Positions 24,247 through 41,523 are shown, numbered from the stretch's first letter. The stretch is 64,000 nt of DNA from an uncultured Candidatus Saccharibacteria bacterium (GCA_964548205.1 CAZJPJ010000002.1:69737-133736); one strand, 5' to 3'. A program made the numbers and translations. Notes: generated by a model not told the origin, from the letters alone.

Positions 24247-24344
24247 TTTGTTAAATATTTTTTAATCAACATCAAATTGTGTAGCCATATTATATTATAC
24301 CCAATTATTTTGGTAATAAAGGGCTTAAATTATATAATTAGTAC

Positions 24345-26195
24345 GTGATTGTGATCAGAAAAAGATATTCTGTCGCTTTTTGGCTTGTTGGAGCCTTTCT
24401 TGTCGCATCTATCATTGGCAATACTGTTACTGTAAAAGCTAATACCTACAATCTTTATTCTACCTCTTGTCTTGGGGGTTGGGAGAATACCAATCTTGCT
24501 GTAGGAAAGCCAGATGTATCACCTGAATCACCCTTGTATAACGAAGGTAATAGCGCACGACTTTCGGGTAATGCTCATGCTCAGATATACTGCGGAGGAT
24601 TCTATGGAGATGTAATCGAAAATACTGTGCCAAAAAAAATATCTGTAAAATTTTCTTGGGCAGTAGAGTATCCAAATTTCGGTGTAAATAATTCAGATTC
24701 AAGTACAGAAGAAGTTTATAGTTCGGATATCATTTCGGAAGACCAAACCGAATCTGAGACATTAAAAACAAGTGAACCTCAAGAAAAAGACCTAGAAATG
24801 AGTTTAGTCGAAGGAGATTCGTTAGATATTGGGGAAGTGCAAGGTGAGAGTATAGAGAGTTATGACGAAGATGAAATAGTGTCAGGAACGGAGGATTTTT
24901 CTAAATCAGAAGAATCACAAAATGAAATAGTTGAAGTCAAAGATGATGAATCCACATTAGATAGTGACAACGGGGGTACTTCTCTGCCGAGTGATATTGA
25001 GGAAAATTTGGCTGTACCCCCTGAACAATCTGAGTCAGTATCTGGAACAGAATTACAACCGGAATCTGATGTTGCATCTGATCCTATTTCTAAGAAAGAT
25101 TTTATGCCCTGGTATATCACTATGTTTGCAAGCATTGCAAATGCGCAAGGGGTAGAAGAAGAAAATACAAACACACAAGAAAGCACAGATTTCGAGGAAT
25201 CCTCTGGGGTCATTATTGAATTAGAGGATAATGCTGAAAATGATGCAAATAATAATATAGCCACAAGTACAAACAATAGCGTAGACAATACCGCTAAATT
25301 TCTCGATGCCCCTTCTGGTCTTGTAGAAGTCTTTTATACTCTAGATGGTATAGATTGGAAGAGTATGGGTTATGTGGGCAGTGATGAATTTCAGGGTAAA
25401 TATTTTGAAATCCCAATAGAAGAGGCTTCGAGTTGGGAAGACATATCAAAGATACAAATAAGTGTTCAAAGTACGTCTATAATAGACGTAAGGATACCTA
25501 CGTTATATTTAGACTCAATATGGATAGAAGTAGACTATGAACTTGGAGAAGTGCAGAAATTAGATGGTCCACATGTTTATGATAAAGATGTAATTATAGA
25601 CCCACAAGCAAAACATTCTTGTGCAGTCAATCCTTCTTCTTTGTCACTTCAGTATGGCACAGATTATAAAGCGATAGTTTCCCTTGCTTTCTCTGGGGAC
25701 CCTAGTCCTACATTAGAAACTGTTAACGGAGATCAAAATGAAAATACTGATGAAAATAATGAACAATCACCCAAACGTACTAGGTTCGGTTTTATCGATA
25801 TAGGCGCTCTACCGCGTGGTATAGATGTGAGGTTTTTTTCAACTACTACTCCGTATAGTTACTTGATTGATGAATATGGCCCAGATAATATTGAGATTAA
25901 CGTAAGTATATATACACAGGATGCACAAAGAGGCTCTTTTAGTATCCCGTTTATTTTTACAAAGACAAAAGGTAAAGATTCATCTACTATTTGCCAACTA
26001 AACCTCATATATTCTCAATCAGATACTGTAATAAATCATGAAGTGGTGCCAACAGAGTCAATAAATTATAGCGATATCCCGGGTGACGTTTTTTTTGAAG
26101 ATGTCTCGCGCGAAAATGACACAGGACGTGAAGATCTTAAACAAGAAATTATTGAAGAAGAAAATCAGGCCGCTATAATTGATCATGATTTATGA
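24345..26195 (+). CDS. Secreted highly acidic protein (signal peptide, Asp/Glu/Ser-rich region, C-terminal beta-rich domain)
   Basis: 616 aa. N-terminal signal/TM segment. Residues ~120-320 are low-complexity acidic. Confidence 0.55.
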   Translation: MIVIRKRYSVAFWLVGAFLVASIIGNTVTVKANTYNLYSTSCLGGWENTNLAVGKPDVSPESPLYNEGNSARLSGNAHAQIYCGGFYGDVIENTVPKKISVKFSWAVEYPNFGVNNSDSSTEEVYSSDIISEDQTESETLKTSEPQEKDLEMSLVEGDSLDIGEVQGESIESYDEDEIVSGTEDFSKSEESQNEIVEVKDDESTLDSDNGGTSLPSDIEENLAVPPEQSESVSGTELQPESDVASDPISKKDFMPWYITMFASIANAQGVEEENTNTQESTDFEESSGVIIELEDNAENDANNNIATSTNNSVDNTAKFLDAPSGLVEVFYTLDGIDWKSMGYVGSDEFQGKYFEIPIEEASSWEDISKIQISVQSTSIIDVRIPTLYLDSIWIEVDYELGEVQKLDGPHVYDKDVIIDPQAKHSCAVNPSSLSLQYGTDYKAIVSLAFSGDPSPTLETVNGDQNENTDENNEQSPKRTRFGFIDIGALPRGIDVRFFSTTTPYSYLIDEYGPDNIEINVSIYTQDAQRGSFSIPFIFTKTKGKDSSTICQLNLIYSQSDTVINHEVVPTESINYSDIPGDVFFEDVSRENDTGREDLKQEIIEEENQAAIIDHDL

Positions 26196-27196
26196 GTATG
26201 GATAGGTCGTCTAAAATTAATAAAAAAAATATTGTAGAAAAATTTACAATGAGGTCAGTGCTAATACTATGCATTGTGCTCCTTGTAATTAGTAATATTA
26301 CAACTTTGGTGCTGTATGTTTTTGGTTCAAGTGAGAGTATAGATCAGTTTAGAGAAAAATATCCTCTGATTGATGTCTCTAGACACTTAATTTCGCAAGA
26401 CCATTTTATTTCAACTCTCCAGCCACTAAGGGAAAGTCTGAATAGTGTTGTCGAGAGGAATGGTAAAGGTGTTATATCTATATATTTCGAATATTTAAAT
26501 ACTGGAGCGAATATATCTATCAATGAGGACCTAAGGATGTTCCCAGCATCATTAGTGAAAGTGCCTCTTGCTATGGCTGTTATGAAAAAGGTGGAGAGAG
26601 GTGATTGGCTTATGCATAACGAACTCGTTCTTATGAAGGAGGATAGAGATTATGCTTGGGGAGATGTGCATAAGCGTCCTATTGGGACACGTATAAGTAT
26701 AGACGATCTTTTACACGAGATGCTCGTATCATCTGATAATACTGCTTTCCGTATGCTTTATCGCAATCTTTCCTTTGATGAATTACAAGATGTTTTGGTG
26801 GCTGTTGGGCTTGAAGAGTTATTTAACGAAGATGGTAAGATCACGGTCAAAGAGTATACTAGACTTTTTCGGGCCTTATATACATCAAGTTATCTTAATC
26901 GAGAAAACTCGCAAAAAATTATTGATATCTTAACCAAGACTTCTTACGATGAATATTTAGGCCAAGGGGTGCCAGATAATGTTTTATTTGCACACAAGAT
27001 AGGTGAGAATGATGAGGCTGAAGTGATACTCGATACCGGTATTGTGTATATAGAAAATAGACCATACCTTATCTCCGTCGCTATTGATTACGGTACTACA
27101 AACATAGGCCGCGATGGAGCTCTCGAGATACTAAAAGAAGTATCCAAGATGAGTTATGATTATATTTTGAATTATGATACGCAAGGTGCTCCGTAA
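26192..27196 (+). CDS. Class A beta-lactamase-like serine hydrolase
   Basis: S-x-x-K (ASLVK), SDN loop (VSSDNTAFRML, compare TEM MSDNTAANLL), and K[T/S]G-like HKIGEN. Membrane-anchored N-terminus. Confidence 0.6.
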   Translation: MSMDRSSKINKKNIVEKFTMRSVLILCIVLLVISNITTLVLYVFGSSESIDQFREKYPLIDVSRHLISQDHFISTLQPLRESLNSVVERNGKGVISIYFEYLNTGANISINEDLRMFPASLVKVPLAMAVMKKVERGDWLMHNELVLMKEDRDYAWGDVHKRPIGTRISIDDLLHEMLVSSDNTAFRMLYRNLSFDELQDVLVAVGLEELFNEDGKITVKEYTRLFRALYTSSYLNRENSQKIIDILTKTSYDEYLGQGVPDNVLFAHKIGENDEAEVILDTGIVYIENRPYLISVAIDYGTTNIGRDGALEILKEVSKMSYDYILNYDTQGAP

Positions 27197-30100
27197 TATA
27201 ATAAGGGGCTTTGCTTCTGTATTTTTGATATTAGCCATCTTTTTTATAGGTGTGCCATTTGATGGTATTGTTCATATTATAGAAGAGCGCAATATAGTCG
27301 ACCTACTATATAAGGCAGAAAAAAGTAGCAATGTAGTCGACAGCCTTTTCAAAGATATTGTCTTACCAAAGACCGAAAAAACTAGTGCGGCGACTAATGA
27401 TGCGATGCTCGTCTTCAACTCTAAAGTTGGGACATCTACCATGCAGTATAGGGTCTGGAATGGAAGTTCTTGGGGGAGTGAGTCAACAACCTCTGATTTT
27501 CATGGCTCAGAGATTCGTTGGGCCCAGATGAAATATGCGCCAAATCGTGATGAGGCTATTTTAGTAGTACTTACAAATACAGGTCAAGTACAAGCGCAAA
27601 TATACGATGGTAGTTTCTGGGGGGAAACTACTATTTTATCGACCTTGAGTGACTTAAATGGAAGTTCTGATGGAGGTTCTTTATACAGAGGATTCGATGT
27701 TGAGTATGAACAATCTTCAGGAGACGCTATTGTTGTTTCTGGAGATGGCACGGCGGATCCAAATTATCATGTTTGGGATGGGTCTACGTGGAGTTTGAAT
27801 AATAATATCGATATCCCAACTACAGGGAGACCAAACTGGATTGAGCTTGCTGCTCCTATGGCTACGACCACTAATGATTCTTTGGCACTTATTACATTAG
27901 ATTCAAACAGTGATATATATGGCATGCGTTGGACTGGTAGCTCTTGGGATAATATGGGGGTAACAACTACTTGGGATGCGGCCGCAAGTATCTCGACAAG
28001 GAAAGCGATAGATGTTGCGTTTGAGACAGGCACTGGAGATATCATGTTCTTATGGGGTGATTCTGTTGCTGCTGACGATCACAATTATCGTACTTATGCT
28101 GGTGGGGCTTTGAGTAGTATTGTTGCTCTTCCTAACTCAAATGCTGGAGGTCAGCCAAACTGGGTAAGGCTCGCACCAAATACTACCTCTGGTGCAAACG
28201 TAAATCAGATAATGCTTGGCACCTTGGACTCCGCTGCTGATCTATCCACTTTTATTTGGAGCGGTACTGCTTGGAGCGCTGTGCATGCAGAGCATTCTGC
28301 TGCCGTAGAGAATGCTGCTGTTCAACAGGATTTTGAAATTGTCTTTGAGACTCATGTATCAAATCCTGATGATGCGTGGCTCTTATGGAACAATGGTTCA
28401 ACAGTTTCTAGGAAATTATGGAATGGCCCTACTGCTGCCTGGGGTTCAGCTACGACAGTGGGAGATGATAGCGCCGGGTTGGTATTAAATTCACATCCCA
28501 ATAATGGAGCCGTGCTTGCTGGTATATATGAAGATACAAGTTCAGCCTCTGATGATATTAGTGAAATACATTTGACGGGTGGGAGTCAGACATGGTCTTC
28601 GCTTGCTGATTTTTGGACAGGACCAGTGCAAAGAGAGATCGGTCTTCTTCGTATGGCGCAAGCGGTGCAAAGTTATAATAATTCAAATGAAGCCATGGTT
28701 GCTTATGTTACAGAAGGGAGCACCTCGTATCCTCAGTATGCGCGTTGGAATGGTTCTTCTTGGGGCAGTGTTGCATCTACATCTCCTACCGCTGGCGAGA
28801 TTAGACACATGGTACTAAAGGCTGCTCCTACTAGAGATGAGCTCATGCTCGTTACCTTAGGTCATACTGGTCAAGTGCAGGCTCAGGTATACAGTGGTGA
28901 GAGTGGAGCTTGGGGTTCTGCTCAATTGTTAAACACTATGAATAATTCACAGGGTACTAGGGATACCCAGTCTTTATATAGAGGTTTTGACATTGAGTAT
29001 GAGAGTGCTTCAGGAGATGCTATCGTGGTGACTGGAGATGGCACGGCGGATCCAAATTATCATGTCTGGGATGGGAGCTCTTGGACGGGGCCTACTGACA
29101 TAAATATTCCAAATACAGGTCGCCCGAATTGGATAGAGTTGGCTGCACCACTCGCTACTACTACAAACGATTCACTCGCTTTTATATTGGTGGATAGTAA
29201 TGTTGATGTATATGGTATGCGATGGACTGGAAGTGCGTGGGACAATATGGGGGCTGCCGCAGTATGGGATGCGACAGGTGCTATTGCCACTGAAAAATCT
29301 GTTGACGTGGCTTTTGAAACAGGAAGCGGGGACATTATGTTTATATGGGGAGATTCGGTATCTACTGATCAATACTACCGGACTTATTCTGGAGGATCGT
29401 TATCTGCCGCTACTCTTCTTGATAATGCACAAGCTGGAGCTGTAAACAACTGGATGCGTCTTGCTCCAAATCCTACAGGTGGCTCTTTCCAAGATCAAAT
29501 CCTCTATGCAGTTCTCGACGGCGGTTCGGACCTCAATACATTTATGTGGAGCGGTACTGCTTGGAGTAGTGTGCACACTGAACACACTGCTGCTGCAGAA
29601 AATCATTCTAATCAGGTTTTTGATATTGCGTTTGAAACCCACTCCTCAAATCCTGATGATGCATGGCTTGCTTATGGGGATGGAAATACCATATCTCGTA
29701 AGCTTTGGAATGGTGCAACACAAACGTGGGGTAGCGCTACAACTCAAGGAGATGACACTGACTATATTGCTCTCAATGCTCATCCCAATACAGGAGCATT
29801 CTTTATGGCCGCTTATGAAAGTTCTGCTTCTGCTTCTGATGACGCCACCATCAATAATCTTAGTGGAGGCTCTCAAACATGGGGATCTGCAACAAGTATC
29901 TGGCCTGGTCCTGTTGGACGTGTTGGCTTAGGTCTTACACAAATTGCGATTGCTAGTGATCGATATCAATCTCCTACATTTGAACAATCTGCCTACCGTC
30001 TATTTACAAACACAAACTCGGCTGATGTAGGAAGCCCTCTTGCTCTGCAAGACACTTCGGCAACTCTTAGTTCTACCGGAGATGCTTTTAGACTCAGAAC

Positions 30101-31064
30101 ACTTATTCATGTGGGGAGTAACCAGCTCACAACTGGGTCTACTAGTTTCAAGTTGCAGTATGCCGAAAAGTCAGGCACTTGCGATACTTCATTTTCGGGG
30201 GAAACTTATGCTGATGTGACAGGTGCTACCCCCATAGCTTTTAATGACAACGCTTCGCCTGTGGATGGAGCGTCATTGGTTGCAAATGTAAATGATCCGA
30301 CCCATGGTGGGCACGCTATAGTAAATCAGGATTATGAGGAATCTAATAATTTTACTAACTCTGAGGCTGCTATACCGGCAGGTCAGGATGGTAAGTGGGA
30401 TTTCTCACTTATAGATAATGGTGCACCAGCAAATACAAGCTATTGTTTTAGAATTGTAAAATCAGGAGGTGCATTGCTCGATACATATACTGTCATTCCT
30501 GAGGTAAGTACTGCGGACGGTGCGCCGTCACTTACATTTACAGTGACTACCAATAACTTCGGCTCTATTGTTCCGGGTTTCCCAGTTTTTGCTACCAGCA
30601 CTCTTTCTGTAAATACAAATAATTCGTCTGGATGGTTTGTGACTGTTTCAGCAGATGATGTTACTGACACAGTTCAAACAATGGATCTAACAACTGATAC
30701 AAATATTGAGATTATGGACCTTGATCCTCAATGGATCGCTCCTGTATCAACTACAACGACTAGTAATGCTATATCCATAACTAATGGTCAGAATGCTCTA
30801 GCTTTCAGGGTGATGACTGCAAGTGGTACGACTTCTTTCCGTTCTACTTCTTGGTGGGGGAGTGGAGATGATCCTTATACTACGGCACGATGGGCTGGCT
30901 TTGCTAGTTCTAGTGCCCCGACTACAAATTTGAAGATAGGTATATCAAGCACTGATTCTGGCGGAGAAGCTATTAATACTATCCAATATTATTTGGATGT
31001 ATCAGAGAGTCAATTGAGCGGGGACTATTCTGGGTCTATTACCTTTACTGCTGTTGCAAACTAA
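27174..31064 (+). CDS. Giant secreted protein: two tandem ~420-aa beta-propeller-like lectin-type repeats plus a ~200-aa C-terminal domain shared with the next gene
   Basis: 1296 aa. Blade-like motifs recur every ~50 aa (YRVWNGSSWG, YHVWDGSTWS, YGMRWTGSSWD, FIWSGTAWS). The whole block is duplicated (aa ~78-505 and ~505-930). The C-terminal region aligns with ORF 31166-31858. Confidence 0.75.
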   Translation: MIRKVLRNIIRGFASVFLILAIFFIGVPFDGIVHIIEERNIVDLLYKAEKSSNVVDSLFKDIVLPKTEKTSAATNDAMLVFNSKVGTSTMQYRVWNGSSWGSESTTSDFHGSEIRWAQMKYAPNRDEAILVVLTNTGQVQAQIYDGSFWGETTILSTLSDLNGSSDGGSLYRGFDVEYEQSSGDAIVVSGDGTADPNYHVWDGSTWSLNNNIDIPTTGRPNWIELAAPMATTTNDSLALITLDSNSDIYGMRWTGSSWDNMGVTTTWDAAASISTRKAIDVAFETGTGDIMFLWGDSVAADDHNYRTYAGGALSSIVALPNSNAGGQPNWVRLAPNTTSGANVNQIMLGTLDSAADLSTFIWSGTAWSAVHAEHSAAVENAAVQQDFEIVFETHVSNPDDAWLLWNNGSTVSRKLWNGPTAAWGSATTVGDDSAGLVLNSHPNNGAVLAGIYEDTSSASDDISEIHLTGGSQTWSSLADFWTGPVQREIGLLRMAQAVQSYNNSNEAMVAYVTEGSTSYPQYARWNGSSWGSVASTSPTAGEIRHMVLKAAPTRDELMLVTLGHTGQVQAQVYSGESGAWGSAQLLNTMNNSQGTRDTQSLYRGFDIEYESASGDAIVVTGDGTADPNYHVWDGSSWTGPTDINIPNTGRPNWIELAAPLATTTNDSLAFILVDSNVDVYGMRWTGSAWDNMGAAAVWDATGAIATEKSVDVAFETGSGDIMFIWGDSVSTDQYYRTYSGGSLSAATLLDNAQAGAVNNWMRLAPNPTGGSFQDQILYAVLDGGSDLNTFMWSGTAWSSVHTEHTAAAENHSNQVFDIAFETHSSNPDDAWLAYGDGNTISRKLWNGATQTWGSATTQGDDTDYIALNAHPNTGAFFMAAYESSASASDDATINNLSGGSQTWGSATSIWPGPVGRVGLGLTQIAIASDRYQSPTFEQSAYRLFTNTNSADVGSPLALQDTSATLSSTGDAFRLRTLIHVGSNQLTTGSTSFKLQYAEKSGTCDTSFSGETYADVTGATPIAFNDNASPVDGASLVANVNDPTHGGHAIVNQDYEESNNFTNSEAAIPAGQDGKWDFSLIDNGAPANTSYCFRIVKSGGALLDTYTVIPEVSTADGAPSLTFTVTTNNFGSIVPGFPVFATSTLSVNTNNSSGWFVTVSADDVTDTVQTMDLTTDTNIEIMDLDPQWIAPVSTTTTSNAISITNGQNALAFRVMTASGTTSFRSTSWWGSGDDPYTTARWAGFASSSAPTTNLKIGISSTDSGGEAINTIQYYLDVSESQLSGDYSGSITFTAVAN

Positions 31065-31165
31065 GTAAAGTTTTTGTTTTATGGACTGTGGATATCGTCT
31101 TGTAATATGTACCTTTTCAAAATAAAATTAAGAGGTCAGTTCTTCCTTATTAATATAAAAAAGAA

Positions 31166-31858
31166 ATGAAAATAGAATACATTAGTAGTTTTAGTAAATC
31201 TGATACAAGGTTGCTTGCTTTTTGTTTGGCTGTATCTTTCTTGGTCACCAGTTTGTTTTATGTAAATTATGCTAAGGGTGAAGCTGTGGTGCTTACTGTT
31301 ACTGTCCAGTCCACTCTTTCTTTTTCAACCACTTCTGATAATTTCGGCAACATTACTCCCGGTAGTCCGAAGTTTGCTACTACAACTCTTGCTCTTTCTA
31401 CAAACAATACTCCAGGATGGAATATTATTCTTTCCGGAGATGATCAAGGTACATCGAATGAAGTATGTGATTTAGACAGTGATGCTTCGGTAGGTCTTAC
31501 TGATCAAGCAGAATGGGTCCCGGGTGCAGCTACGACTACAGCTGGTAATGCTGTCCGTATAGGTTCATTTGATAATTCAGGTGACGTTTTAGCTTTTCGA
31601 GTGATGACCGCAAGTGGTAGCGCCCCTTTTAGATCTACTTCTTGGTGGGGAAGTTCTGATACATATACTGATAATGCGAGCACCCTGTGGGCTGGTATAT
31701 CGAGTTCTTCGCCATCAAGACAGATAGGTAATGCAGGTAATGGTTCTTATAGCGCAAGTACTCATTTGAATACAGTATTGTATTATCTTGATGTTCCTGC
31801 TTCTCAGCAGACGGGTGCTTATAGTTGCCCACTTACATTTACAGCAACAGCCAATTAG
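31166..31858 (+). CDS. Secreted protein consisting of the C-terminal domain shared with the giant propeller protein (WxL-like cell-surface domain candidate)
   Basis: Signal peptide. TVTVQSTLSFSTTSDNFGNITPGSPKFATTTLALSTNNTPGW...LAFRVMTASG..FRSTSWWGS...YYLDV...TFTATAN is colinear with the last ~200 aa of the giant protein. Confidence 0.65.
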   Translation: MKIEYISSFSKSDTRLLAFCLAVSFLVTSLFYVNYAKGEAVVLTVTVQSTLSFSTTSDNFGNITPGSPKFATTTLALSTNNTPGWNIILSGDDQGTSNEVCDLDSDASVGLTDQAEWVPGAATTTAGNAVRIGSFDNSGDVLAFRVMTASGSAPFRSTSWWGSSDTYTDNASTLWAGISSSSPSRQIGNAGNGSYSASTHLNTVLYYLDVPASQQTGAYSCPLTFTATAN

Positions 31859-31868
31859 AAGTCTATAA

Positions 31869-32795
31869 ATGACGTCAATTATTAAAAAAATCGTTGTCTG
31901 TTCTATCGTAACAGTGGCTTTAGGAGTTGAGCTTGTGTCTGCAAGTACTGGCCTTTCAATACAACCAGTAAAGGTAAGTCACACCTTAACTCCTGGAGAT
32001 GAAGTATCGGGTATTATTTCATTGAAAAATGAAAGTGGTGAAAGAATTGCGGTCGATGTAAGTGTCGAAGACTTCACACCTTCGGCAGGAACAACAAACA
32101 TATCGTTTGTAGGTAGGGCAGATGGCAATACTACGGTTAGGGATTGGGTCACTCTGGATGTACCAAGTAATTTTTTCTTTGAATCTGGTGAAAGTAAACA
32201 AATCAAATATACTATCAAAGCTCCTCAGGATGCAGAGCCGGGGAGTCATTTTGGGGTTTCTTTTTTTAAAGCATACAAACCTGAAGATCAGAGTCAGCTC
32301 AAGGTTAGTACTAGGATAGGGATGCTAATGTTCGTGACTATTCCAGGAAATCAACTTCAGAGTGGAAGAGTTCTAGATTTTAAATCCCCATTATTTCTTC
32401 AGAGAGGTCCAGTGCCGTTTACGATAAAGTACGAAAATACTGGGACTGTTCACTTTGAACCCAAGGGTAAAATTGAGATAAAAAATATCTTGGGTAAAAA
32501 AGTTGGGGAAGTGGAGGTTGCAGGTCAAGCTGTTCTACCAACTGGTATAAGAGACCTTGAAGCGGCATGGAACGAGGGAGGTCTTGTGTTCGGTCGTTAT
32601 ACCGCCAACCTAACCATACAGGATGGCGAAGGTAATGTCATGAATTCAGAACAGATTTCCTTTTATGGATTTCCATTGATGTATACAGGTGGTTTTATTT
32701 TCTTGGCTTTTATAATATTTGTATTAGTCAAATTTTTGAAGAGAAGACTACATATAAATATAAGTGTTGGTAAAAAGGATGATACAATGATGTAA
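31869..32795 (+). CDS. Membrane-anchored cell-surface protein (DUF916/DUF3324-like architecture)
   Basis: Signal peptide, ~250-aa beta-rich ectodomain, C-terminal TM helix plus basic tail (GGFIFLAFIIFVLVKFLKRR). This architecture, and its position after two proteins sharing a C-terminal domain, recall Gram-positive csc/WxL clusters. Family call is tentative. Confidence 0.45.
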   Translation: MTSIIKKIVVCSIVTVALGVELVSASTGLSIQPVKVSHTLTPGDEVSGIISLKNESGERIAVDVSVEDFTPSAGTTNISFVGRADGNTTVRDWVTLDVPSNFFFESGESKQIKYTIKAPQDAEPGSHFGVSFFKAYKPEDQSQLKVSTRIGMLMFVTIPGNQLQSGRVLDFKSPLFLQRGPVPFTIKYENTGTVHFEPKGKIEIKNILGKKVGEVEVAGQAVLPTGIRDLEAAWNEGGLVFGRYTANLTIQDGEGNVMNSEQISFYGFPLMYTGGFIFLAFIIFVLVKFLKRRLHINISVGKKDDTMM

Positions 32796-33820
32796 TGATG
32801 GGCCTGCGCTTCCACTTTATTTCTCTGTTTTTTATATTATTTTTTTTCTTAATTTTTAATCAAATTATTGCTAGCTCTACAACTTTGAGAGTGGTTGTTG
32901 TAGGAGATAAACAGTGTAATGACGGTATTGACAACGATGGGGACAACCTCATCGATTATTTGGGTGACCCTGGGTGTGACACCTCAATTGATGATGATGA
33001 AAGTAATCCATCTACTGGTGGTGGGGGCGGTTCTGGTGGTGGAGGAGGCGGTGGGGGTGGTACAACGGTATCTAGTCAGTCTCTTACTGGGGTAATATTT
33101 AGGGGGGTAGCCTACCCAAATAGTAGCGTTTTTATACTAAAAAACGGTAGCATAGTGGCTTCCACTATATCTGGACCTGATGCTAGGTTTGATGTACTCA
33201 TTAACAACATATCTTCTGGAAACTATACTTTCAGTATTTATGCTACAGATGCTAATGGTATGTCATCTACACCCAAAGTCTTTTCTATTAGTTTGATATC
33301 AGGTTCTACAGCCACAGTGAGTGATATTTTTCTTTCCCCAACAATATCAACTGATAAAGTAGAAGTGAGAAGAGGTGATCCGATTGTACTGTTCGGTCAA
33401 GGAGCGCCTGAGTCAAAAGTAACGATCGTAGTAAATTCTGAAAATGAGATAATAAAAGAAAAAAACACTGATACTAAGGGGGTTTGGTCGTATCAGTTAG
33501 ATTCTATCTTACTTGAAAATGGAGACCATGAAGCAAAAAGTAGAATTTCTTCTTCTGAATCAGTTAGTCCTTTTTCTAAATCTGTATTTTTTAAAGTTGG
33601 TAATGTAAATAAGAATAGAGACAAAGAACCAAATACACTCAGAAAAGGTGACCTCAATAGTGATGGAAAAGTGAATCTAGTGGACTTTTCTATCGCGGCA
33701 TTTTGGTATAGGAAGCAGTTGTCCGGAGATATAATAGAAAGGGAATTAGAAAGATTAAATGCTGATAGCAAAATAGATCTAAAAGATTTTAGCATTATTG
33801 CTTATTGGTGGACTGGTTAA
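32795..33820 (+). CDS. Secreted protein with a Cys-bounded DNDGDG calcium-binding motif, Gly-rich linker, Ig-like domains and C-terminal dockerin-like repeats
   Basis: CNDGIDNDGDNLIDYLGDPGC; a GGGGGSGGGGGGGGG linker; two dockerin-type calcium-binding repeats (DLNSDGKVNLVDFSIAAFWY, ADSKIDLKDFSIIAYWW). Confidence 0.6.
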   Translation: MMGLRFHFISLFFILFFFLIFNQIIASSTTLRVVVVGDKQCNDGIDNDGDNLIDYLGDPGCDTSIDDDESNPSTGGGGGSGGGGGGGGGTTVSSQSLTGVIFRGVAYPNSSVFILKNGSIVASTISGPDARFDVLINNISSGNYTFSIYATDANGMSSTPKVFSISLISGSTATVSDIFLSPTISTDKVEVRRGDPIVLFGQGAPESKVTIVVNSENEIIKEKNTDTKGVWSYQLDSILLENGDHEAKSRISSSESVSPFSKSVFFKVGNVNKNRDKEPNTLRKGDLNSDGKVNLVDFSIAAFWYRKQLSGDIIERELERLNADSKIDLKDFSIIAYWWTG

Positions 33821-34730
33821 TATGAAAAAAATATTTAAAATACTAATTATACTCTCTGTTAGCTCTACCCCACTTCTCAGTAGTGCGGCTGTTTTTGGAG
33901 TCGATAAAAATAACATAAGCCCATCTGATAGTTCAGAATTATTTTTAGACGTTTATGTAGATACTGAGGGTGAGGCTATAAATACTTTTGCGGGAGAGCT
34001 ATTTATACCAGATTTTATTCAGGTAAAAAAAATATACTATGGAAATTCTATAATAAATACTTGGATCCAAACACCAGAATACATAAATAATAGCATCATT
34101 TTTTCTGGAGTTGTGCCAGGGGGGTTTGAAAGAGATGTAAATCCTCTAAGTAAACTTGGTACCAAGGGGTTGCTTTTTCAGGCGTTAGTATCAATTGAAA
34201 ATAGAGAAGAATTAGAACAAGGAAAGGGAGAAAAGGAATTATTATTTTTAAGTGCCGAAGCTTTTTTGAATGACGGCGAAGGTACAAGTGCCAAAGTAAA
34301 ATTTAAAGAAATCGATGTTACCAAATCCGTTGGCGGATCAAGTTATGAAGTACCCGTTGTTACTGATAGGCTTTCTCCGGAATCAATAAATTATGAGATA
34401 AGCAGAGATCGTTCTATTTTCAATAATAAGTATTTTGTATCTTTTTATTCTGAAGATAGGCATTCTGGGGTCAATAGGTATGAGATATGTGAGTCTTGGT
34501 TGCCATTGCCTTACCCGTATACTTGTATCGGTAAGTGGTATGAGGCTTCCAGTCCATATCTCCTCACTGACCAATCACTCAGAAGTGATATTTATATCAA
34601 AATTTATGATGTAGAGAATAATGTGTATACAAAAGTTATTTATCCTAAGCACAGCTCTGTCTTATATACTTTCTATCTTATTGGTATAATTTTGTTGTTG
34701 GTTTTTTATAAGTATTATATAAAAAGATAA
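33798..34730 (+). CDS. Cohesin-like domain protein with C-terminal membrane anchor
   Basis: Signal peptide, N-terminal ~150-aa beta-sandwich region resembling cohesin modules, C-terminal TM helix (FYLIGIILLLVFY). Confidence 0.45.
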   Translation: MLIGGLVNMKKIFKILIILSVSSTPLLSSAAVFGVDKNNISPSDSSELFLDVYVDTEGEAINTFAGELFIPDFIQVKKIYYGNSIINTWIQTPEYINNSIIFSGVVPGGFERDVNPLSKLGTKGLLFQALVSIENREELEQGKGEKELLFLSAEAFLNDGEGTSAKVKFKEIDVTKSVGGSSYEVPVVTDRLSPESINYEISRDRSIFNNKYFVSFYSEDRHSGVNRYEICESWLPLPYPYTCIGKWYEASSPYLLTDQSLRSDIYIKIYDVENNVYTKVIYPKHSSVLYTFYLIGIILLLVFYKYYIKR

Positions 34731-34738
34731 AACAAAAA

Positions 34739-36178
34739 TTGAAATTTTATAAATCTAAAATTTTTTTATTTTCATTTCTGTTTGTCTTAGCTTTTGTTTT
34801 GTTGCCCTCAGTTACAAATGCCGCAAGTCTGTATTTCAATCCTTCCAGTTCTGAGTATAAGATAGGCGATTCTTTTTTTGTAAATGTTGTCATTGATAGT
34901 GCTGATAAGTCTATCAACGCACTCTCTGGAAGTATCGATTTCTCAAGCGATGTTTTAGAGGTTGTTTCTATAAGCAAAACTGGCTCAATTGTAAATTTTT
35001 GGGTACAGGAACCAAATTATTCTAATGCCAATGGGAGTGTCAGTTTTGAGGGTGTTGTACCGAATCCTGGGTTTATAGGTAATGTCGGTCGTGTTATAAC
35101 CATAAATTTTAAGGTAAAAAGAGCTGGGCTGGCAAAACTTGCGTATTCATCTGCTTCTGTTTTGGCGAATGACGGTTTGGGTACAAATATTCTTTCTGGT
35201 GTAAAGGGCGCCACTTTCTCTATCAAGGAAGCTTTGGTTGTACCACAAATAAAATCAGATTTAGATGTTATTGATAATAGTCCTTCTATATTGAACTCAA
35301 TAAAAGAAGCCCCAAGAGAGGATAAGACTGTTCCGATTGTGGGGCTTGAGTATGTTTTAAATCAAAAAGTTTCTGATGAATATAAGTATCAAGTTTATAT
35401 CGGAGGGTTTGGACCTACAGATTGGCAAACTGATACAGATAAGATTTTTAGTACAAGTCCGTTACAGCCAGGAGAGCATACAATAAGAGTTGTAATATCA
35501 GATCGGAAGGGTAATGAATATACAAAGATTTTTAATGTTTATGTAGCTCCTCTTGAAAGGCCAACTCTTAATCAGACTCTCAGTATTGTAAATTCCGATG
35601 AACCTATTGTGGTAAACGGTTATTCGAGCTATGTAGGAGAGAGGGTTATGCTTCATATAAAGAACAATGATGGAAGTTTTATAAAAAAATATGAGGTGGT
35701 TATAAAATCTGATGGTACTTTCTCCATAATAGGCGATAAGCTAGGTAGCGATGTTTATACAATGTACGTAGAGGTTGTAAGGCAAGATGGAGCAAGAAGT
35801 CTGCCTACAGAATCAGTGACATTCCTTGTAAGAAGCTCAAATATTTTAAGGCTCGGTAATTTGGCTATAAGTTACCTCTCTATCATTGTTACCCTTCTTT
35901 TGCTTATAGCCGGAGCGATTGTGCTCGGGCTATTTATCTTGAGGTATGTCTATGTCTACAATCGCAAAGTCAAAAAATGGCGTGAAAATGTCGATACTGA
36001 GGTCTCTCGCGGAGTTTCAGATCTTGAGTCTGAGATAGATTATCTAATTTCTCAGTTTGATGGTAAGCCAAACCTGAGTTCTAAAGAAAAGGAAATGCTG
36101 GATAAGATAACAGCTCTCTTGGAGAGGTATCGACATAATGTTGTTAAAAAACTTGGTAAAGAAATAAAGTCTGAATAG
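34739..36178 (+). CDS. Cohesin-like domain protein with Ig-like middle region and C-terminal membrane anchor
   Basis: Signal peptide. The N-terminal module LYFNPSSSEYKIGDSFFVNVVIDSADKSINALSGSIDFSSDVLEVVSI resembles type-I cohesins. C-terminal TM helix plus cytoplasmic coiled-coil tail. Confidence 0.5.
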   Translation: MKFYKSKIFLFSFLFVLAFVLLPSVTNAASLYFNPSSSEYKIGDSFFVNVVIDSADKSINALSGSIDFSSDVLEVVSISKTGSIVNFWVQEPNYSNANGSVSFEGVVPNPGFIGNVGRVITINFKVKRAGLAKLAYSSASVLANDGLGTNILSGVKGATFSIKEALVVPQIKSDLDVIDNSPSILNSIKEAPREDKTVPIVGLEYVLNQKVSDEYKYQVYIGGFGPTDWQTDTDKIFSTSPLQPGEHTIRVVISDRKGNEYTKIFNVYVAPLERPTLNQTLSIVNSDEPIVVNGYSSYVGERVMLHIKNNDGSFIKKYEVVIKSDGTFSIIGDKLGSDVYTMYVEVVRQDGARSLPTESVTFLVRSSNILRLGNLAISYLSIIVTLLLLIAGAIVLGLFILRYVYVYNRKVKKWRENVDTEVSRGVSDLESEIDYLISQFDGKPNLSSKEKEMLDKITALLERYRHNVVKKLGKEIKSE

Positions 36179-36197
36179 AAATCTAAATATAAGAAAA

Positions 36198-36225
36198 GCC
36201 CCCGGCGCGTACCCGCGCCGGGGGC
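36198..36225. terminator. Bidirectional GC-rich terminator hairpin between convergent genes
   Basis: gcccccggcgcg-tacc-cgcgccgggggc, a perfect 12-bp stem. Confidence 0.6.
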
Positions 36226-36235
36226 TGAAGGCTGT

Positions 36236-37429
36236 TTACCACGATACAACAATGATCATGGCAAGGTAGCCCAAAAGGAATCCTGCGGGCACAAACCATC
36301 CCTCAACTACCCATCGGATGATATTCTTCGCCTCTGGAAACTGCCCAGAGGCGACCACCCCTGCGCTTGAGCCAAACCAAGTGTTGCTACCACCAGTGCC
36401 AACGGCGTAGCATAGGTAGGCCCAATTGTAACCACCTTGGGACAAGGCTAGCTTGGTTAGCGGAATGTTGTCCAGAAATCCGGAGAACACCCCAATCCAA
36501 AACGTCGATAAGATGCTTGCAATTGGGAGTTGGTCGATCGGCATCATCGACGCCGACAGTACCAAACATAGTAGGAATGAGACACTACCCACTGCATGCC
36601 TCAACCCGACAATATCGAACTCAAAATGCAAACTCCTTATCGGTAAAAATGACACGCAAACCCCGATAAAGGCTGCCGCGCCCACCCAGGGAAATGAGTC
36701 GGCGTACTCTTTGAAGCTCATGTTGACGATAGTGTTGACCCCCGCTGCAAATGACAGTATCCCAACAACCCACCACAGATACTCGGTCTTTATTCTTATG
36801 TTTTTTACCGGGTCAATCTGTATGGGGCTGATAGCTTGTTGCATCCGCCCTGCGAAGAATGCTACAAACAGGACGTTTACAACAGAACCGACGATTGCCG
36901 GTGCGATTTCTAGCACAGAGACACCGGAAATCCACGCCATAGTTGTGGTGGTGTCGCCGATAACACTCCATGCTCCACCTGCATTTGCACATGCTACAAT
37001 TCCAGCCAAATATCCAATTGTTATTTGTGTGAATACTACTTTGGCAATGGTTCCGCCTATGATTGTGGATGCAATGTTGTCTAGAAATGCAGATCCTGTT
37101 GCTACCATGAGCAACAGGAAAAAACCACCCCGCCAGTTGTCTGGCAGGATCTTAGGGAGCCAGTCTGGTACCAGGCTGGCTTTGAAGTACTGACCAAGCA
37201 CTTCAAAGCTAAATATGAGAGCTAATATGTTTGCCCCCAATACCCATTCGTGGCCTAAGTGTTCCATGAGTGGGTTAAGCCCAATGTGACCTTTGAACCC
37301 AAAGCCAAAGGTTTTGACCGCGGCGATGGTTAACATCCCCGCAATCGCAATTCTGAGATTGTGCTCGTGGTATTTGTTAATACCAAAGAGCATTAAAAAA
37401 AGTAGCCCAAAAAGGGCGATTGCTTCCAT
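36236..37429 (-). CDS. NhaD/ArsB-superfamily ion transporter (Na+/H+ antiporter NhaD-like)
   Basis: 397 aa, ~11 TM helices, duplicated motif regions (FLDNIASTIIGG / FLDNIPLTKLAL). GC content is clearly higher than flanking genes. Confidence 0.6.
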   Translation of the reverse strand: MEAIALFGLLFLMLFGINKYHEHNLRIAIAGMLTIAAVKTFGFGFKGHIGLNPLMEHLGHEWVLGANILALIFSFEVLGQYFKASLVPDWLPKILPDNWRGGFFLLLMVATGSAFLDNIASTIIGGTIAKVVFTQITIGYLAGIVACANAGGAWSVIGDTTTTMAWISGVSVLEIAPAIVGSVVNVLFVAFFAGRMQQAISPIQIDPVKNIRIKTEYLWWVVGILSFAAGVNTIVNMSFKEYADSFPWVGAAAFIGVCVSFLPIRSLHFEFDIVGLRHAVGSVSFLLCLVLSASMMPIDQLPIASILSTFWIGVFSGFLDNIPLTKLALSQGGYNWAYLCYAVGTGGSNTWFGSSAGVVASGQFPEAKNIIRWVVEGWFVPAGFLLGYLAMIIVVSW

Positions 37430-38703: not shown

Positions 38704-38734
38704 AAGTTAAAAGCAAAAATAAAATTAAAAAGAT

Positions 38735-39109: not shown

Positions 39110-39162
39110 TAATGCACCCCTCTATATTTGGAATTTATTTACTAATTTTATTTTAAATAAAA

Positions 39163-39696: not shown

Positions 39697-39698
39697 CG

Positions 39699-41504: not shown

Positions 41505-41523
41505 ATTGTGCTAGATTTTTGGC

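What the first reader, a model, noticed from the sequence alone, without database searches (positions are those of the whole stretch)
24345..36178. Twelve-kb cell-surface locus: acidic protein, beta-lactamase-like hydrolase, giant tandem-propeller protein, paralogous small protein, anchored DUF916-like protein, dockerin protein and two anchored cohesin-like proteins
Eight consecutive same-strand genes all encode exported or anchored proteins. The arrangement has two proteins sharing a ~200-aa C-terminal domain followed by a single-pass anchored beta-rich protein, which mirrors Gram-positive WxL/csc surface complexes. A dockerin-bearing protein is then directly followed by two membrane-anchored cohesin-like proteins. 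The tandem-propeller protein's blades resemble the fucose-binding lectins of the AAL/RSL family. Together this suggests a modular, non-covalently assembled adhesion or glycan-binding surface complex.
Basis: partly seen in the sequence, partly recalled or inferred. Interest (0 to 1): 0.7.

Follow-up and report, generated by a model that had tools for sequence, protein, structure and literature searches.

The report
Pam-like pilus operon with cohesin–dockerin anchor
This is a conserved eight-gene operon of an ultrasmall (CPR/Parcubacteria) bacterium that most likely builds an adhesive surface fibre by strand-swapping between subunits, distantly related to the newly described Pam pili and to Gram-positive WxL clusters. 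It appears to be tied to the cell membrane by a cohesin–dockerin pair, an arrangement I did not find described in the paper library searched here.

Summary
Eight tightly packed same-strand ORFs (24345-36178) all carry N-terminal export/anchor segments, and three also have C-terminal membrane helices.

Most domain calls survive testing:
- ORF2 is a class-A beta-lactamase-like hydrolase.
- ORF3 and ORF4 share a 180-aa C-terminal domain (45% identity).
- ORF5 folds like WxLIP/DUF916 and PapD-type pilus chaperones.
- ORF6 ends in a dockerin.
- ORF7 and ORF8 start with cohesins.
- The AAL/RSL fucose-lectin and WxL-domain assignments get no HMM or PDB-profile support.

New here:
- The shared ORF3/ORF4 domain is a remote relative of the C-terminal domain of Pam pilins (CPR pilus, 2026 preprint).
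- ORF5 is homologous to the chaperone-position gene of a bona fide pam operon.
- ORF4 and ORF6, but not ORF3, begin with a free alternating beta-strand typical of donor strands.
- The six-gene core (large variable-head protein, small pilin, chaperone, dockerin protein, two cohesin anchors) recurs in the same order in about 30-37 Paceibacteria genomes.

Proposed model, with the assembly steps inferred: ORF3 is the tip adhesin, ORF4 the shaft, ORF5 the membrane chaperone, and ORF6 a terminator/adaptor docked onto the ORF7/ORF8 anchors.

Verdict: a new variant of a known kind. Interest about 0.68.

The parts
24310..24338 (+). Promoter-like site (TTGGTA-17-TATAAT) upstream of ORF1
   Evidence: 10/12 consensus match. 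This is a pattern match only; the number of such sites in the region does not exceed shuffled controls.
24345..26195 (+). ORF1: 616-aa acidic exported/anchored protein of unknown fold; accessory gene
   Evidence: pI 4.05, 19% D+E, N-terminal hydrophobic segment at residues 10-28. No Pfam or NCBIfam hit. A homologue lies upstream in 13/23 related loci.
26192..27196 (+). ORF2: membrane-anchored class-A beta-lactamase-like serine hydrolase; accessory gene
   Evidence: PF13354, E 2.7e-43. NCBIfam bla_class_A scores 79.7 bits, well below its 200 cut-off. Motifs SxxK at 120, SDN at 181 and KIG at 269; TM segment 23-41. Present in 13/23 related loci.
27174..31064 (+). ORF3: 1296-aa putative tip adhesin. 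It comprises a signal/anchor, two tandem ~430-aa propeller-like modules, a stalk domain, and a C-terminal pilin-like domain with no donor strand.
   Evidence: Orthologous position in 26/31 loci, with hypervariable heads.
27351..28673 (+). ORF3 propeller-like module 1 (residues ~60-500), with about 8 W-x-G-x-x-W blades
   Evidence: 59% identical to module 2, E 3.5e-175. 40-48% identical to the C-terminal module of ~560-aa CPR proteins that have type IV prepilin N-termini. The homologue P0335 carries precomputed PF13360/PF13570 hits, which I recall to be PQQ-like propeller families. No Pfam hit for the module itself.
28671..29963 (+). ORF3 propeller-like module 2 (residues ~500-930)
   Evidence: No Pfam hit.
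29964..30518 (+). ORF3 stalk domain (residues 931-1115), ending in the YCFR(I/V)...Y.V.P motif
   Evidence: The same domain precedes the pilin domain in many orthologous large proteins (O3M hits; motif visible). No Pfam hit.
30519..31061 (+). ORF3 C-terminal pilin-like domain; acceptor-only, with no extra N-terminal strand
   Evidence: 45% identical to ORF4 residues 50-230. NF058581 Pam_pilin_C E 7.7e-5, 22.8 bits. The ORF4-family HMM match starts at position 46, after the N-terminal extension.
31166..31858 (+). ORF4: 230-aa small pilin, the putative shaft subunit. It comprises a signal peptide, a 10-14-aa N-terminal extension and a pilin-like beta-sandwich ending in an invariant ...TATAN-COOH.
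31280..31312 (+). ORF4 N-terminal extension (residues 39-49, EAVVLTVTVQS): candidate donor strand
   Evidence: Unstructured in the monomer model, pLDDT 59-70. L43, T46 and V47 are at least 90% conserved. An alternating h-p-h-p-h strand follows the signal peptide in 37/40 orthologues. It is absent from ORF3-type proteins.
31869..32795 (+). ORF5: 308-aa membrane-anchored two-Ig-domain chaperone-like protein (WxLIP / PapD / PamC-D type)
   Evidence: AF2 pLDDT 88, with two beta-sandwiches and a TM helix at 270-293. Foldseek: WxLIP 9i1y at 4.7e-10, then Caf1M, CfaA, CsuC, FimC, SafB and DraB at 1e-9 to 1e-7. 28% identical, E 2e-25, to the gene lying between the pilins and PamR in the pam operon of L056. 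PF06030 is sub-threshold in 23/46 family members.
32795..33820 (+). ORF6: 341-aa putative terminator/adaptor. It comprises a signal peptide, a free N-terminal beta-strand, an acidic Cys knot and Gly linker, Ig domains and a C-terminal dockerin.
   Evidence: Big_6 E 3.9e-7, acid_disulf_rpt and the dockerin hits. Follows ORF5 in 37/40 loci.
32873..32905 (+). ORF6 N-terminal strand (residues 27-37, SSTTLRVVVVG): candidate donor strand
   Evidence: 36/47 orthologues have the same (T/S)L(T/Q)V(T)V-type strand directly after the signal peptide, followed by poly-G/P linkers or a Cys knot. The same pattern occurs in 3/69 ORF5, 1/12 ORF1, 1/16 ORF2 and 0/25 large proteins.
33593..33817 (+). ORF6 dockerin module, with two Ca-loop repeats (DLNSDGKVNLVDFSI / LNADSKIDLKDFSI)
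   Evidence: PF00404 E 1.4e-4, 22.4 bits against a 22.9 cut-off. 40/40 orthologous C-termini hit, best 1.5e-14.
33798..34730 (+). ORF7: 310-aa membrane-anchored cohesin protein (cohesin at about 33885-34337; C-terminal TM segment 286-304)
   Evidence: A3 cohesin-family HMM E 3.4e-30. It belongs to alignment A3, of which 44/60 members hit PF00963. TM segment.
34739..36178 (+). ORF8: 479-aa membrane-anchored cohesin protein (cohesin at 34811-35233, Ig-like middle region, TM segment 382-400, ~75-aa cytoplasmic tail)
   Evidence: The N-domain hits PF00963 at E 1.5e-6, 28.9 bits, above the 24.1 cut-off. The A3 profile's top three PDB hits are cohesins 5g5d, 5m2o and 5aoz. TM segment.
36197..36226 (.). 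GC-rich hairpin between the convergent ORF8 and the minus-strand gene 36236-37429
   Evidence: 13-bp stem with 12 GC pairs. The T-tract was scored on the minus strand.

Best explanation
The locus is an operon of a Parcubacteria/Paceibacteria (CPR) bacterium for a chaperone-assisted, usher-less, donor-strand-linked adhesive fibre. It is a distant relative of the Pam pilus of Saccharimonadia and of Firmicute WxL/WxLIP clusters.

Shown here:
- ORF3 and ORF4 share a pilin-like beta-sandwich domain remotely related to the Pam pilin C-terminal domain.
- ORF5 is a membrane-anchored two-Ig-domain protein of the PapD/WxLIP fold and is homologous to the chaperone-position gene of a bona fide pam operon.
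- ORF6 ends in a dockerin.
- ORF7 and ORF8 begin with cohesins and end in TM helices.
- The six genes are syntenic across many genomes.

Inferred mechanism:
1. All subunits are exported by Sec.
2. ORF5, tethered to the membrane, caps the incomplete fold of newly exported pilin domains.
3. ORF3 has a large variable head and an acceptor-only pilin domain, so it starts the fibre as the tip adhesin, in the manner of FimH or PamT. Its head consists of two propeller-like modules that also occur on type-IV-pilin-like proteins.
4. ORF4 subunits insert their N-terminal extension into the preceding subunit's groove and so form the shaft.
5. ORF6 has the same kind of N-terminal strand but no acceptor domain. 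It ends the chain, and its dockerin binds the cohesins of the membrane-anchored ORF7/ORF8. In this it would replace the PamR anchor.

ORF1 (acidic protein) and ORF2 (beta-lactamase-like hydrolase) are accessory. They may condition the envelope, but no role was shown.
For: Fold:
- The ORF5 model (pLDDT 88) matches WxLIP and chaperone-usher chaperones at Foldseek E 5e-10 to 1e-7.

Homology to Pam:
- 43/46 ORF4-family members hit NF058581 Pam_pilin_C, and 3 hit PamT.
- The ORF3 C-terminal domain hits NF058581 at 7.7e-5.
- P0241 is the closest relative of the ORF3 head (54% identity). Its C-terminal domain passes the NF058581 cut-off, 63.6 against 55 bits.
- hhalign of the ORF4 family against Pam C-terminal domains aligns end to end, E 6e-5.
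- The ORF5 profile hits, at E 7e-41, the gene lying between four NF058581-positive pilins and PamR in L056. Pairwise identity is 28%, E 2e-25.

Donor strands:
- An alternating strand directly follows the signal peptide in ORF4 (37/40) and ORF6 (36/47) orthologues. It is found in 0/25 large proteins, 3/69 ORF5, 1/12 ORF1 and 1/16 ORF2.
- In ORF6 the strand is followed by flexible linkers.
- ORF3-type proteins have only strand A before the FG motif.

Tip logic:
- Heads are hypervariable: 8% of pairs are similar, against 100% for the tails.
- The ORF3 head is shared with type-IV-pilin-like proteins carrying an RGFSxVEVLLA N-terminus.

Anchor and operon:
- Cohesin and dockerin are confirmed, and ORF7/ORF8 have TM helices.
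- Synteny is strong.
- The published Pam model has the same logic: an acceptor-only tip, pilins, TM-anchored chaperones, and a terminator that inserts an N-terminal strand (bioRxiv 10.64898/2026.03.03.709456).
Against:
- All Pam-family HMM hits of the window proteins are far below the curated cut-off (20-23 bits against 55). hhalign probability is only 65%.
- ORF4 is a single-domain pilin, unlike the two-domain PamA/PamB, and could be a PamT-like cap rather than a polymerising subunit.
- ORF6 shows no similarity to PamR (E 0.07).
- That the dockerin binds ORF7/ORF8, and that ORF6 inserts into ORF4, rests only on gene adjacency and sequence pattern.
- The donor-like pattern also occurs in 8/31 ORF7 and 18/51 ORF8 N-termini, so it is not fully specific.
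Confidence: 0.58

Rival explanations
1. A WxL/csc-type static surface complex. ORF3 and ORF4 would each be held 1:1 on the membrane-anchored ORF5 by strand complementation and displayed on the wall without polymerising. The dockerin and cohesin proteins would form a separate or loosely associated scaffold.
For: - The three-gene architecture (large protein with the shared C-terminal domain, small protein made only of that domain, two-Ig-domain TM protein) equals the published definition of a WxL cluster (PMC10599100).
- The best fold match of ORF5 is WxLIP, including a WxLIP bound to a long WxL protein (9i25).
- PF06030 hits are sub-threshold in 23/46 family members.
- In WxL clusters a WxLIP strand is predicted to complete the WxL sandwich.
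Against: - 0/46 ORF4-family members match WxL PF13731.
- ORF4 and ORF6 carry conserved free N-terminal strands, which a 1:1 chaperone complex does not need.
- The sequence relationship is to Pam pilins, which do form filaments.
- The dockerin and cohesin genes are as tightly syntenic as the rest.
Confidence: 0.25
2. A cellulosome-like glycan-capture complex. The propeller protein would be a lectin, and the dockerin protein would be recruited onto cell-bound cohesin scaffolds to harvest polysaccharide, in analogy with csc clusters proposed for carbohydrate utilisation.
For: - Genuine cohesin and dockerin modules are present.
- W-x-G-x-x-W blades recall the WDGxGW motif of RSL/AAL lectins. This rests on my own recollection of those sequences, not on a test.
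- The csc clusters of L. plantarum were proposed to serve carbohydrate utilisation (PMC1534035, title seen).
Against: - There is no glycoside hydrolase, carbohydrate-binding module or sugar transporter in the locus.
- There is no PF07938 hit and no lectin hit in the PDB profile searches.
- Only one dockerin protein is encoded in the 64 kb, and it carries Ig domains, not an enzyme.
Confidence: 0.07
3. Unrelated surface-protein genes that merely happen to be adjacent.
For: ORF1 and ORF2 are present in only 13/23 related loci, and in other genomes extra genes are inserted between them and the core.
Against: The order of the six-gene core is conserved in about 30-37 genomes at 42-62% protein identity. 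Gene junctions overlap.
Confidence: 0.03

Closest known systems
Pam pilus system of CPR bacteria (PamA/B/E/T pilins, PamC/D chaperones, PamR anchor; Ca. Mycosynbacter amalyticus; bioRxiv 10.64898/2026.03.03.709456)
   Same: - It is found in CPR bacteria only, and all components are Sec-exported.
- The pilin C-terminal domain is remotely homologous.
- The membrane-anchored PapD-like chaperone is homologous.
- There is no usher.
- The logic of an acceptor-only tip and a terminator that inserts an N-terminal strand is the same.
   Different: - The lineage differs: Paceibacteria here, against the Saccharimonadia and Microgenomatia named as most prevalent in the paper.
- The shaft pilin has a single domain with an N-terminal extension, not an N-terminal domain, linker strand and C-terminal domain.
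- The tip carries a >1100-aa head.
- There is no PamR. A dockerin adaptor plus two TM-anchored cohesin proteins take its place.
- The window proteins fall below all NCBIfam Pam cut-offs.
- The paper mentions neither cohesin/dockerin nor WxL.
WxL / csc clusters of Firmicutes (small WxL, large WxL, WxLIP = DUF916 + DUF3324 + TM helix; PMC10599100, PMC1534035)
   Same: - The three-gene architecture is identical.
- ORF5 has the WxLIP fold and domain order.
- A partner strand is predicted to complete an incomplete sandwich.
   Different: - There is no PF13731 WxL match.
- The C-terminal WxL motif is replaced by ...T(F/Y)TATAN-COOH.
- Extra N-terminal strands are present.
- Cohesin and dockerin genes are attached.
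- The host is a CPR bacterium.
Chaperone-usher pili (Fim/Pap, and archaic Csu/CupE)
   Same: - The chaperone has two Ig domains.
- The tip adhesin has two parts, head plus pilin domain, as in FimH and PapG.
- The shaft subunit has an N-terminal extension.
- A terminator subunit is part of the concept (PapH).
   Different: - There is no outer membrane and no usher.
- The chaperone is membrane-tethered.
- There is no detectable sequence similarity.
- Anchoring is by cohesin-dockerin.
Cellulosomal cohesin-dockerin pairs (anchoring scaffoldins)
   Same: Pfam-level cohesin (PF00963) and type I dockerin (PF00404) modules are present, with the duplicated Ca-binding loops. The cohesin is on a cell-bound protein and the dockerin on a secreted one.
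   Different: - There are no enzymes or carbohydrate-binding modules.
- The cohesin carriers are anchored by a C-terminal TM helix, not by SLH domains or sortase.
- The context is a pilus-like operon.
- Non-cellulosomal cohesin/dockerin modules are known to be widespread (Peer et al. 2009, from my own knowledge).
AAL/RSL fucose-binding beta-propeller lectins (PF07938)
   Same: Repeated ~52-aa units carry a W-x-G-x-x-W motif that recalls WDGxGW.
   Different: There is no HMM or PDB-profile match. Each module has about 8 blades. The real relatives are the C-terminal modules of CPR type-IV-pilin-like proteins.

Membership tests
Pam pilus system (CPR) | Pilins carry the Pam_pilin_C domain (NCBIfam NF058581, cut-off 55 bits) | tested here: inconclusive
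   - ORF4 scores 20.3 bits (E 4.7e-4) and the ORF3 C-terminal domain 22.8 bits (E 7.7e-5), both below the cut-off.
- 43/46 ORF4-family members hit, best 5.9e-7.
- hhalign gives probability 65%, E 6e-5.
- P0241, a relative of the ORF3 head, passes the cut-off at 63.6 bits.

Pam pilus system (CPR) | Major pilins have two domains, with a linker donor strand between the N-terminal and C-terminal domains | tested here: not met
   ORF4 consists of a signal peptide, an ~11-14-aa N-terminal strand and a single domain. ORF3 has a different, propeller-type head.
Pam pilus system (CPR) | PapD/FimC-like chaperone with a C-terminal TM helix (PamC/PamD) | tested here: met
   The ORF5 model has two Ig domains and a TM helix. 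It matches chaperone-usher chaperones at E 1e-9. It is homologous to the chaperone-position gene of the L056 pam operon, E 2e-25.
Pam pilus system (CPR) | RbmA-like, TM-anchored terminator PamR (NF058578) | tested here: not met
   No NF058578 hit in the locus. ORF6 against the L056 PamR gives E 0.07.
Pam pilus system (CPR) | Forms helical filaments by donor-strand exchange | not testable with these tools
   This needs cryo-EM or multimer modelling. Only candidate donor strands were found.
WxL / csc cluster | At least two WxL-domain proteins (PF13731), one small and one large | tested here: not met
   The small-plus-large architecture is present, but 0/46 ORF4-family members and neither window protein match PF13731.
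WxL / csc cluster | WxLIP protein: DUF916 (PF06030) + DUF3324 + C-terminal TM helix | tested here: inconclusive
   The top fold match is WxLIP 9i1y/9i25 at E 5e-10, and the domain order is the same. PF06030 is sub-threshold only: window E 0.17; 23/46 members, best 5e-4. There is no DUF3324 hit.
Chaperone-usher pili | Outer-membrane usher | tested here: not met
   No usher-like gene in the locus or its flanks. CPR bacteria are regarded as monoderm (established knowledge).
Chaperone-usher pili | Ig-like pilin fold completed by a neighbour's N-terminal strand | tested here: inconclusive
Cohesin-dockerin system | Cohesin module (PF00963) | tested here: met
   The ORF8 N-domain scores 28.9 bits against a 24.1 cut-off. 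44/60 ORF7/ORF8-type domains hit, best 3.4e-11. The profile's top PDB hits are cohesins. For ORF7 itself no Pfam score was listed; it matches the shared A3 family HMM at E 3.4e-30.
Cohesin-dockerin system | Dockerin module (PF00404) with duplicated Ca-binding loops | tested here: met
   The window copy scores 22.4 bits against a 22.9 cut-off, marginally under. 40/40 orthologues hit, best 1.5e-14. Both loops are visible in the sequence.
Cohesin-dockerin system | Specific cohesin-dockerin binding | not testable with these tools
   Only conserved adjacency is available.
AAL/RSL fucose lectins | Match to PF07938, or to solved AAL/RSL-type propellers | tested here: not met
   No hit in the full-length or per-module Pfam scans. 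No hit from the propeller or blade profiles against all PDB sequences.
Class A beta-lactamase | Passes the NCBIfam class A equivalog cut-off | tested here: not met
   PF13354 is met at E 2.7e-43, but NF033103 scores 79.7 against 200 bits. The SxxK, SDN and K-I-G motifs are present. It is a beta-lactamase-like serine hydrolase, not a named resistance enzyme.

The most novel reading that the evidence does not exclude
Paceibacteria carry a previously undescribed pilus class. A donor-strand-exchange fibre (FimH-like tip, single-domain shaft pilin, membrane-tethered chaperone, no usher) is fastened to the cell by a cohesin-dockerin pair. This would be the first cohesin-dockerin used as a pilus anchor. 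It would also link Firmicute WxL clusters, Saccharimonadia Pam pili and this operon into one ancient monoderm 'chaperone-without-usher' family. The same propeller adhesin head would be exchangeable between this fibre and type IV pili.
Probability: 0.35. Interest if true: 0.85.

Novelty: new variant of a known kind. Interest (0 to 1): 0.68.

Why it matters
CPR/Patescibacteria make up a large share of bacterial diversity and live attached to host cells, yet how most of them attach is unknown. [quoted passage not shown]

This locus suggests that the very abundant Parcubacteria/Paceibacteria have their own conserved version, which current curated models leave as hypothetical proteins. It has hypervariable tip heads that are natural candidates for host-specificity determinants.

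Two further points would matter if true. It offers a testable bridge between Gram-positive WxL clusters, whose mechanism is still unsettled, and chaperone-type pilus assembly. It also gives cohesin-dockerin pairs a new role outside cellulosomes.

Tried and rejected
- Single-sequence and profile searches of ORF4 and ORF5 against all PDB sequences found nothing useful. Only fold comparison worked.
- The full-length Pfam scan missed the ORF8 cohesin and under-scored the dockerin. Scanning isolated domains and orthologue sets recovered them.
- WxL PF13731 gave 0/46 hits. ORF4 is therefore not filed as a WxL domain.
- For the AAL/RSL lectin idea I tried a Pfam scan per module, a 43-sequence propeller profile and a 16-blade profile against PDB. 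There were no lectin hits.
- ORF6 as a PamR homologue is rejected (E 0.07).
- Pfam scans of ten orthologous large heads found no known domains.
- Literature searches for WxL with donor strand, and for cohesin/dockerin in CPR bacteria, found no prior description.
- A type IV pilus machinery cluster downstream was considered. The tested ORF 46349-48100 is a peptide ABC substrate-binding protein.
- The organism name could not be obtained. The exact proteins sit on an unnamed 136-kb NCBI contig.
- Not done: the representative-library search was left unused, because it returns no annotation or genomic context.

Full report
**Observation**

The eight ORFs exist exactly as described, all on the + strand:

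| ORF | Coordinates | Length (aa) |
|---|---|---|
| ORF1 | 24345-26195 | 616 |
| ORF2 | 26192-27196 | 334 |
| ORF3 | 27174-31064 | 1296 |
| ORF4 | 31166-31858 | 230 |
| ORF5 | 31869-32795 | 308 |
| ORF6 | 32795-33820 | 341 |
| ORF7 | 33798-34730 | 310 |
| ORF8 | 34739-36178 | 479 |

- Junctions overlap or are at most 101 nt apart.
- A 10/12 promoter-like site sits at 24310-24338, and a 13-bp GC hairpin at 36197-36226. These are pattern matches only.
- All eight products have an N-terminal hydrophobic segment. ORF5, ORF7 and ORF8 also have a C-terminal TM segment. ORF1 is acidic (pI 4.05).
- Named homologues come from Parcubacteria-group lineages such as Nomura-, Sung-, Kaiser-, Taylor-, Adler-, Ryan- and Portnoybacteria.
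- The exact proteins lie on an unnamed 136-kb NCBI contig.

- ORF2 is a beta-lactamase-like serine hydrolase. PF13354 hits at E 2.7e-43, and the SxxK, SDN and KIG motifs are present. It is far below the NCBIfam class A cut-off.
- ORF3 residues 1119-1296 and ORF4 residues 50-230 are 45% identical, E 2e-40. Both end in ...TA(T/V)AN-COOH.
- ORF6 ends in a dockerin. The window copy scores 22.4 bits against a 22.9 cut-off. All 40 orthologous C-termini hit PF00404, best 1.5e-14.
- ORF7 and ORF8 begin with paralogous cohesins:
  - The ORF8 N-domain scores 28.9 bits against a 24.1 cut-off.
  - 44/60 family domains hit PF00963.
  - The family profile's top three PDB hits are cohesins.
  - The full-length scan had missed this.
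- The ORF3 head is two tandem ~430-aa copies, 59% identical. Each has about eight ~52-aa units with a W-x-G-x-x-W motif.
  - It has no match to PF07938 or to any other Pfam family.
  - Neither a 43-sequence profile nor a blade profile finds AAL, RSL or any lectin among PDB sequences.
  - The fucose-lectin idea therefore stays a motif-level resemblance.

**What ORF4 and ORF5 are**

ORF4 belongs to a well-conserved family of about 230-aa proteins: 437 hits, the listed ones 55-77% identical.
- Its AF2 model (pLDDT 82) shows a signal helix, an unstructured stretch at residues 33-50, and a beta-sandwich.
- Foldseek is weak, with no hit at E 1e-3 or better.

ORF5 has 473 homologues.
- Its model (pLDDT 88) has two beta-sandwich domains followed by a TM helix.
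- Its best PDB matches are the E. faecium WxLIP structures 9i1y and 9i25 (E 5e-10). Next come the pilus chaperones Caf1M, CfaA, CsuC, FimC, SafB and DraB, and RbmA.
- 23/46 family members give sub-threshold hits to PF06030 (WxLIP_PGBD = DUF916).
No member of the ORF4 family matches the WxL HMM.

**Link to Pam pili**

NCBIfam flagged ORF4 weakly against NF058581, 'Pam pilus system pilin subunit'. A 2026 preprint (10.64898/2026.03.03.709456) describes this system in Ca. Mycosynbacter amalyticus. Its parts are:
- pilins assembled by donor-strand exchange;
- PapD-like chaperones (PamC/PamD) that carry a C-terminal TM helix;
- an acceptor-only tip (PamT);
- a TM-anchored terminator (PamR) that inserts an N-terminal strand.

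Evidence gathered here:
- 43/46 ORF4-family members hit NF058581 (best 5.9e-7), and three hit PamT.
- The ORF3 C-terminal domain hits NF058581 at 7.7e-5.
- P0241, the nearest relative of the ORF3 head (54% identity), has a C-terminal domain that passes the curated cut-off, 63.6 against 55 bits.
- hhalign of the ORF4 family against Pam C-terminal domains taken from three Saccharimonadia loci aligns end to end. The alignment includes the C-terminal G-x-Y-(S/T)...T-(F/Y)-x-x-T strand. E 6e-5, probability 65%.
- A genome scan with the ORF5 profile also pulled in distant loci (24-30% identity). One of them, L056, is a bona fide pam operon:
  - It has a PamT-like gene, three further NF058581-positive pilins (83-171 bits) and PamR (293 bits).
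  - The ORF5 homologue sits between the pilins and PamR (profile E 7e-41; pairwise 28% identity, E 2e-25).

ORF5 is thus a homologue of the Pam chaperone-position protein, and the ORF3/ORF4 domain is a remote member of the Pam pilin C-terminal superfamily. All window scores are below the curated cut-offs, so the locus is not a standard pam operon.

**Synteny and anatomy**

Counts are from 47 close loci (42-62% ORF5 identity), taking only loci with enough flank:

| Feature | Loci |
|---|---|
| ORF4 abuts ORF5 | 36/40 |
| Dockerin gene follows ORF5 | 37/40 |
| At least two cohesin genes follow | 29/32 |
| Large protein with the ORF4-type tail precedes | 26/31 |
| ORF1 present upstream | 13/23 |
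| ORF2 present upstream | 13/23 |

- Where ORF1 and ORF2 are present, extra genes often lie between them and the core.
- The large proteins keep the tail (100% of pairs similar), but their heads are hypervariable (8% of pairs similar; 163-1259 aa). The heads have no Pfam domains.
- The ORF3 propeller module is 40-48% identical to the C-terminal module of ~560-aa CPR proteins. Those proteins begin with a type IV prepilin motif (RGFSxVEVLLA), and sources name them PilV or type II secretion system protein. The same head is therefore displayed on type-IV-pilin-like proteins elsewhere.

**Donor-strand evidence**

- Mature ORF4 starts with EAVVLTVTVQS, ahead of the first strand of the domain. This stretch is conserved (L43, T46 and V47 at 90% or more) and unstructured in the monomer model.
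- ORF3-type proteins lack it. The family HMM match starts at about position 42, and only strand A precedes the FG motif.
- ORF6 orthologues start with the same kind of strand (SSTTLRVVVVG here; TLTVTV-like elsewhere). It is followed by poly-Gly/Pro linkers or a small Cys knot, that is, a strand on a tether.
- Frequency of the alternating pattern directly after the signal peptide:

| Protein group | With pattern |
|---|---|
| ORF4 | 37/40 |
| ORF6 | 36/47 |
| ORF8 | 18/51 |
| ORF7 | 8/31 |
| ORF5 | 3/69 |
| ORF2 | 1/16 |
| ORF1 | 1/12 |
| Large proteins | 0/25 |

**Model** (domains and homologies shown; assembly steps inferred)

| Component | Proposed role |
|---|---|
| ORF3 | Acceptor-only tip adhesin, like FimH or PamT |
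| ORF4 | Shaft pilin with an N-terminal extension |
| ORF5 | Membrane-tethered chaperone |
| ORF6 | Chain terminator/adaptor whose dockerin binds ORF7/ORF8 |
| ORF7, ORF8 | Membrane-anchored cohesin proteins that hold the fibre base |
| ORF1, ORF2 | Accessory; role unknown |

ORF6 with ORF7/ORF8 would replace PamR. ORF6 is not homologous to PamR. WxL clusters probably work in a related way, since a WxLIP strand is predicted to complete the WxL sandwich (PMC10599100).

**Rivals**

- The main rival is a static WxL-like complex without polymerisation (about 0.25).
- A cellulosome-like glycan-harvesting complex is unlikely. There are no enzymes or carbohydrate-binding modules, and only one dockerin protein is encoded in 64 kb.
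- Chance adjacency is excluded for ORF3-ORF8 by synteny.

**Novelty**

- The Pam preprint does not mention cohesin, dockerin, WxL or Paceibacteria. Literature searches found no description of this operon.
- I rate it a new variant of a known kind (a donor-strand, chaperone-dependent pilus of CPR bacteria) with a new anchoring module.

**Limits**

- No complex was modelled and the ORF3 propeller was not folded, because the prediction jobs were exhausted.
- The Pam and WxLIP sequence links are sub-threshold.
- No experimental evidence of a fibre exists.

Noticed in passing
window 31466-31468 and 31826-31828 (ORF4 Cys101 and Cys221): The two cysteines co-occur perfectly across the ORF4 family: 16 sequences have both, 30 have neither, and 0 have only one. 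In locus orthologues the counts are 8, 71 and 1. This suggests an optional disulfide that pins a loop to the C-terminal strand, consistent with folding outside the cytoplasm.
   Followed up: partly
window 38158-42159: A cluster lies just downstream of the locus, all on the + strand: MsrA, MsrB, thioredoxin, a CcdA/DsbD-type membrane reductase fused to thioredoxin domains, and a DsbA-like protein. It looks like an extracytoplasmic protein-oxidation and repair set that could serve exported surface proteins.
   Followed up: no
P0252, P0294, P0254 (homologues of window 27351-28673): The ORF3 propeller module also forms the C-terminal ~410 aa of CPR proteins with a type IV prepilin N-terminus (RGFSxVEVLLA). 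Sources annotate these as PilV or type II secretion system protein. One adhesin head is therefore shared between two different fibre systems.
   Followed up: partly
L027 2641-5630 and 6640-7719 (also L024, L025, L029, L034, L040, L043, L046): In many related genomes five extra genes (about 207, 540, 243, 180 and 170 aa) sit between the ORF1 and ORF2 homologues and the large pilin-tailed protein. They are absent from the window. One has a methyltransferase-like GxGxG start, and the 536-aa one looks like a multi-pass membrane protein, so they may be a pilin-modification set.
   Followed up: no
L056 5771-7531: The bona fide pam operon of this Saccharimonadales genome contains a 586-aa protein with streptogramin-lyase (Vgb)-like beta-propeller repeats between the pilin genes. 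Propeller proteins thus recur in Pam-type operons.
   Followed up: no
L030, L006, L026, L033: Some genomes duplicate modules. L030 has two ORF5-ORF6 pairs. L006 has a second dockerin-cohesin pair upstream. L026 has an extra cohesin gene about 8 kb downstream. L033 has a second small pilin after ORF5 in place of the dockerin and cohesin genes.
   Followed up: no
window 34739-36178 (method note): The full-length ORF8 Pfam scan reported no cohesin at E 0.1 or better. The isolated N-domain passes the gathering threshold at 28.9 bits. Full-length scans of these low-complexity surface proteins under-report domains.
   Followed up: yes
window 57096-61028 and 3797-6928(-): Two further giant ORFs (1310 and 1043 aa) lie elsewhere in the window. 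The 1310-aa one has Ig-like segments similar to the bacillolysin and chitinase-60 Ig domains. Neither contains the pilin, chaperone, cohesin or dockerin families of this locus.
   Followed up: partly
window 46349-48100(-): This ORF is an oligopeptide/dipeptide ABC substrate-binding protein (AppA-like, E 3e-46), not pilus machinery.
   Followed up: yes
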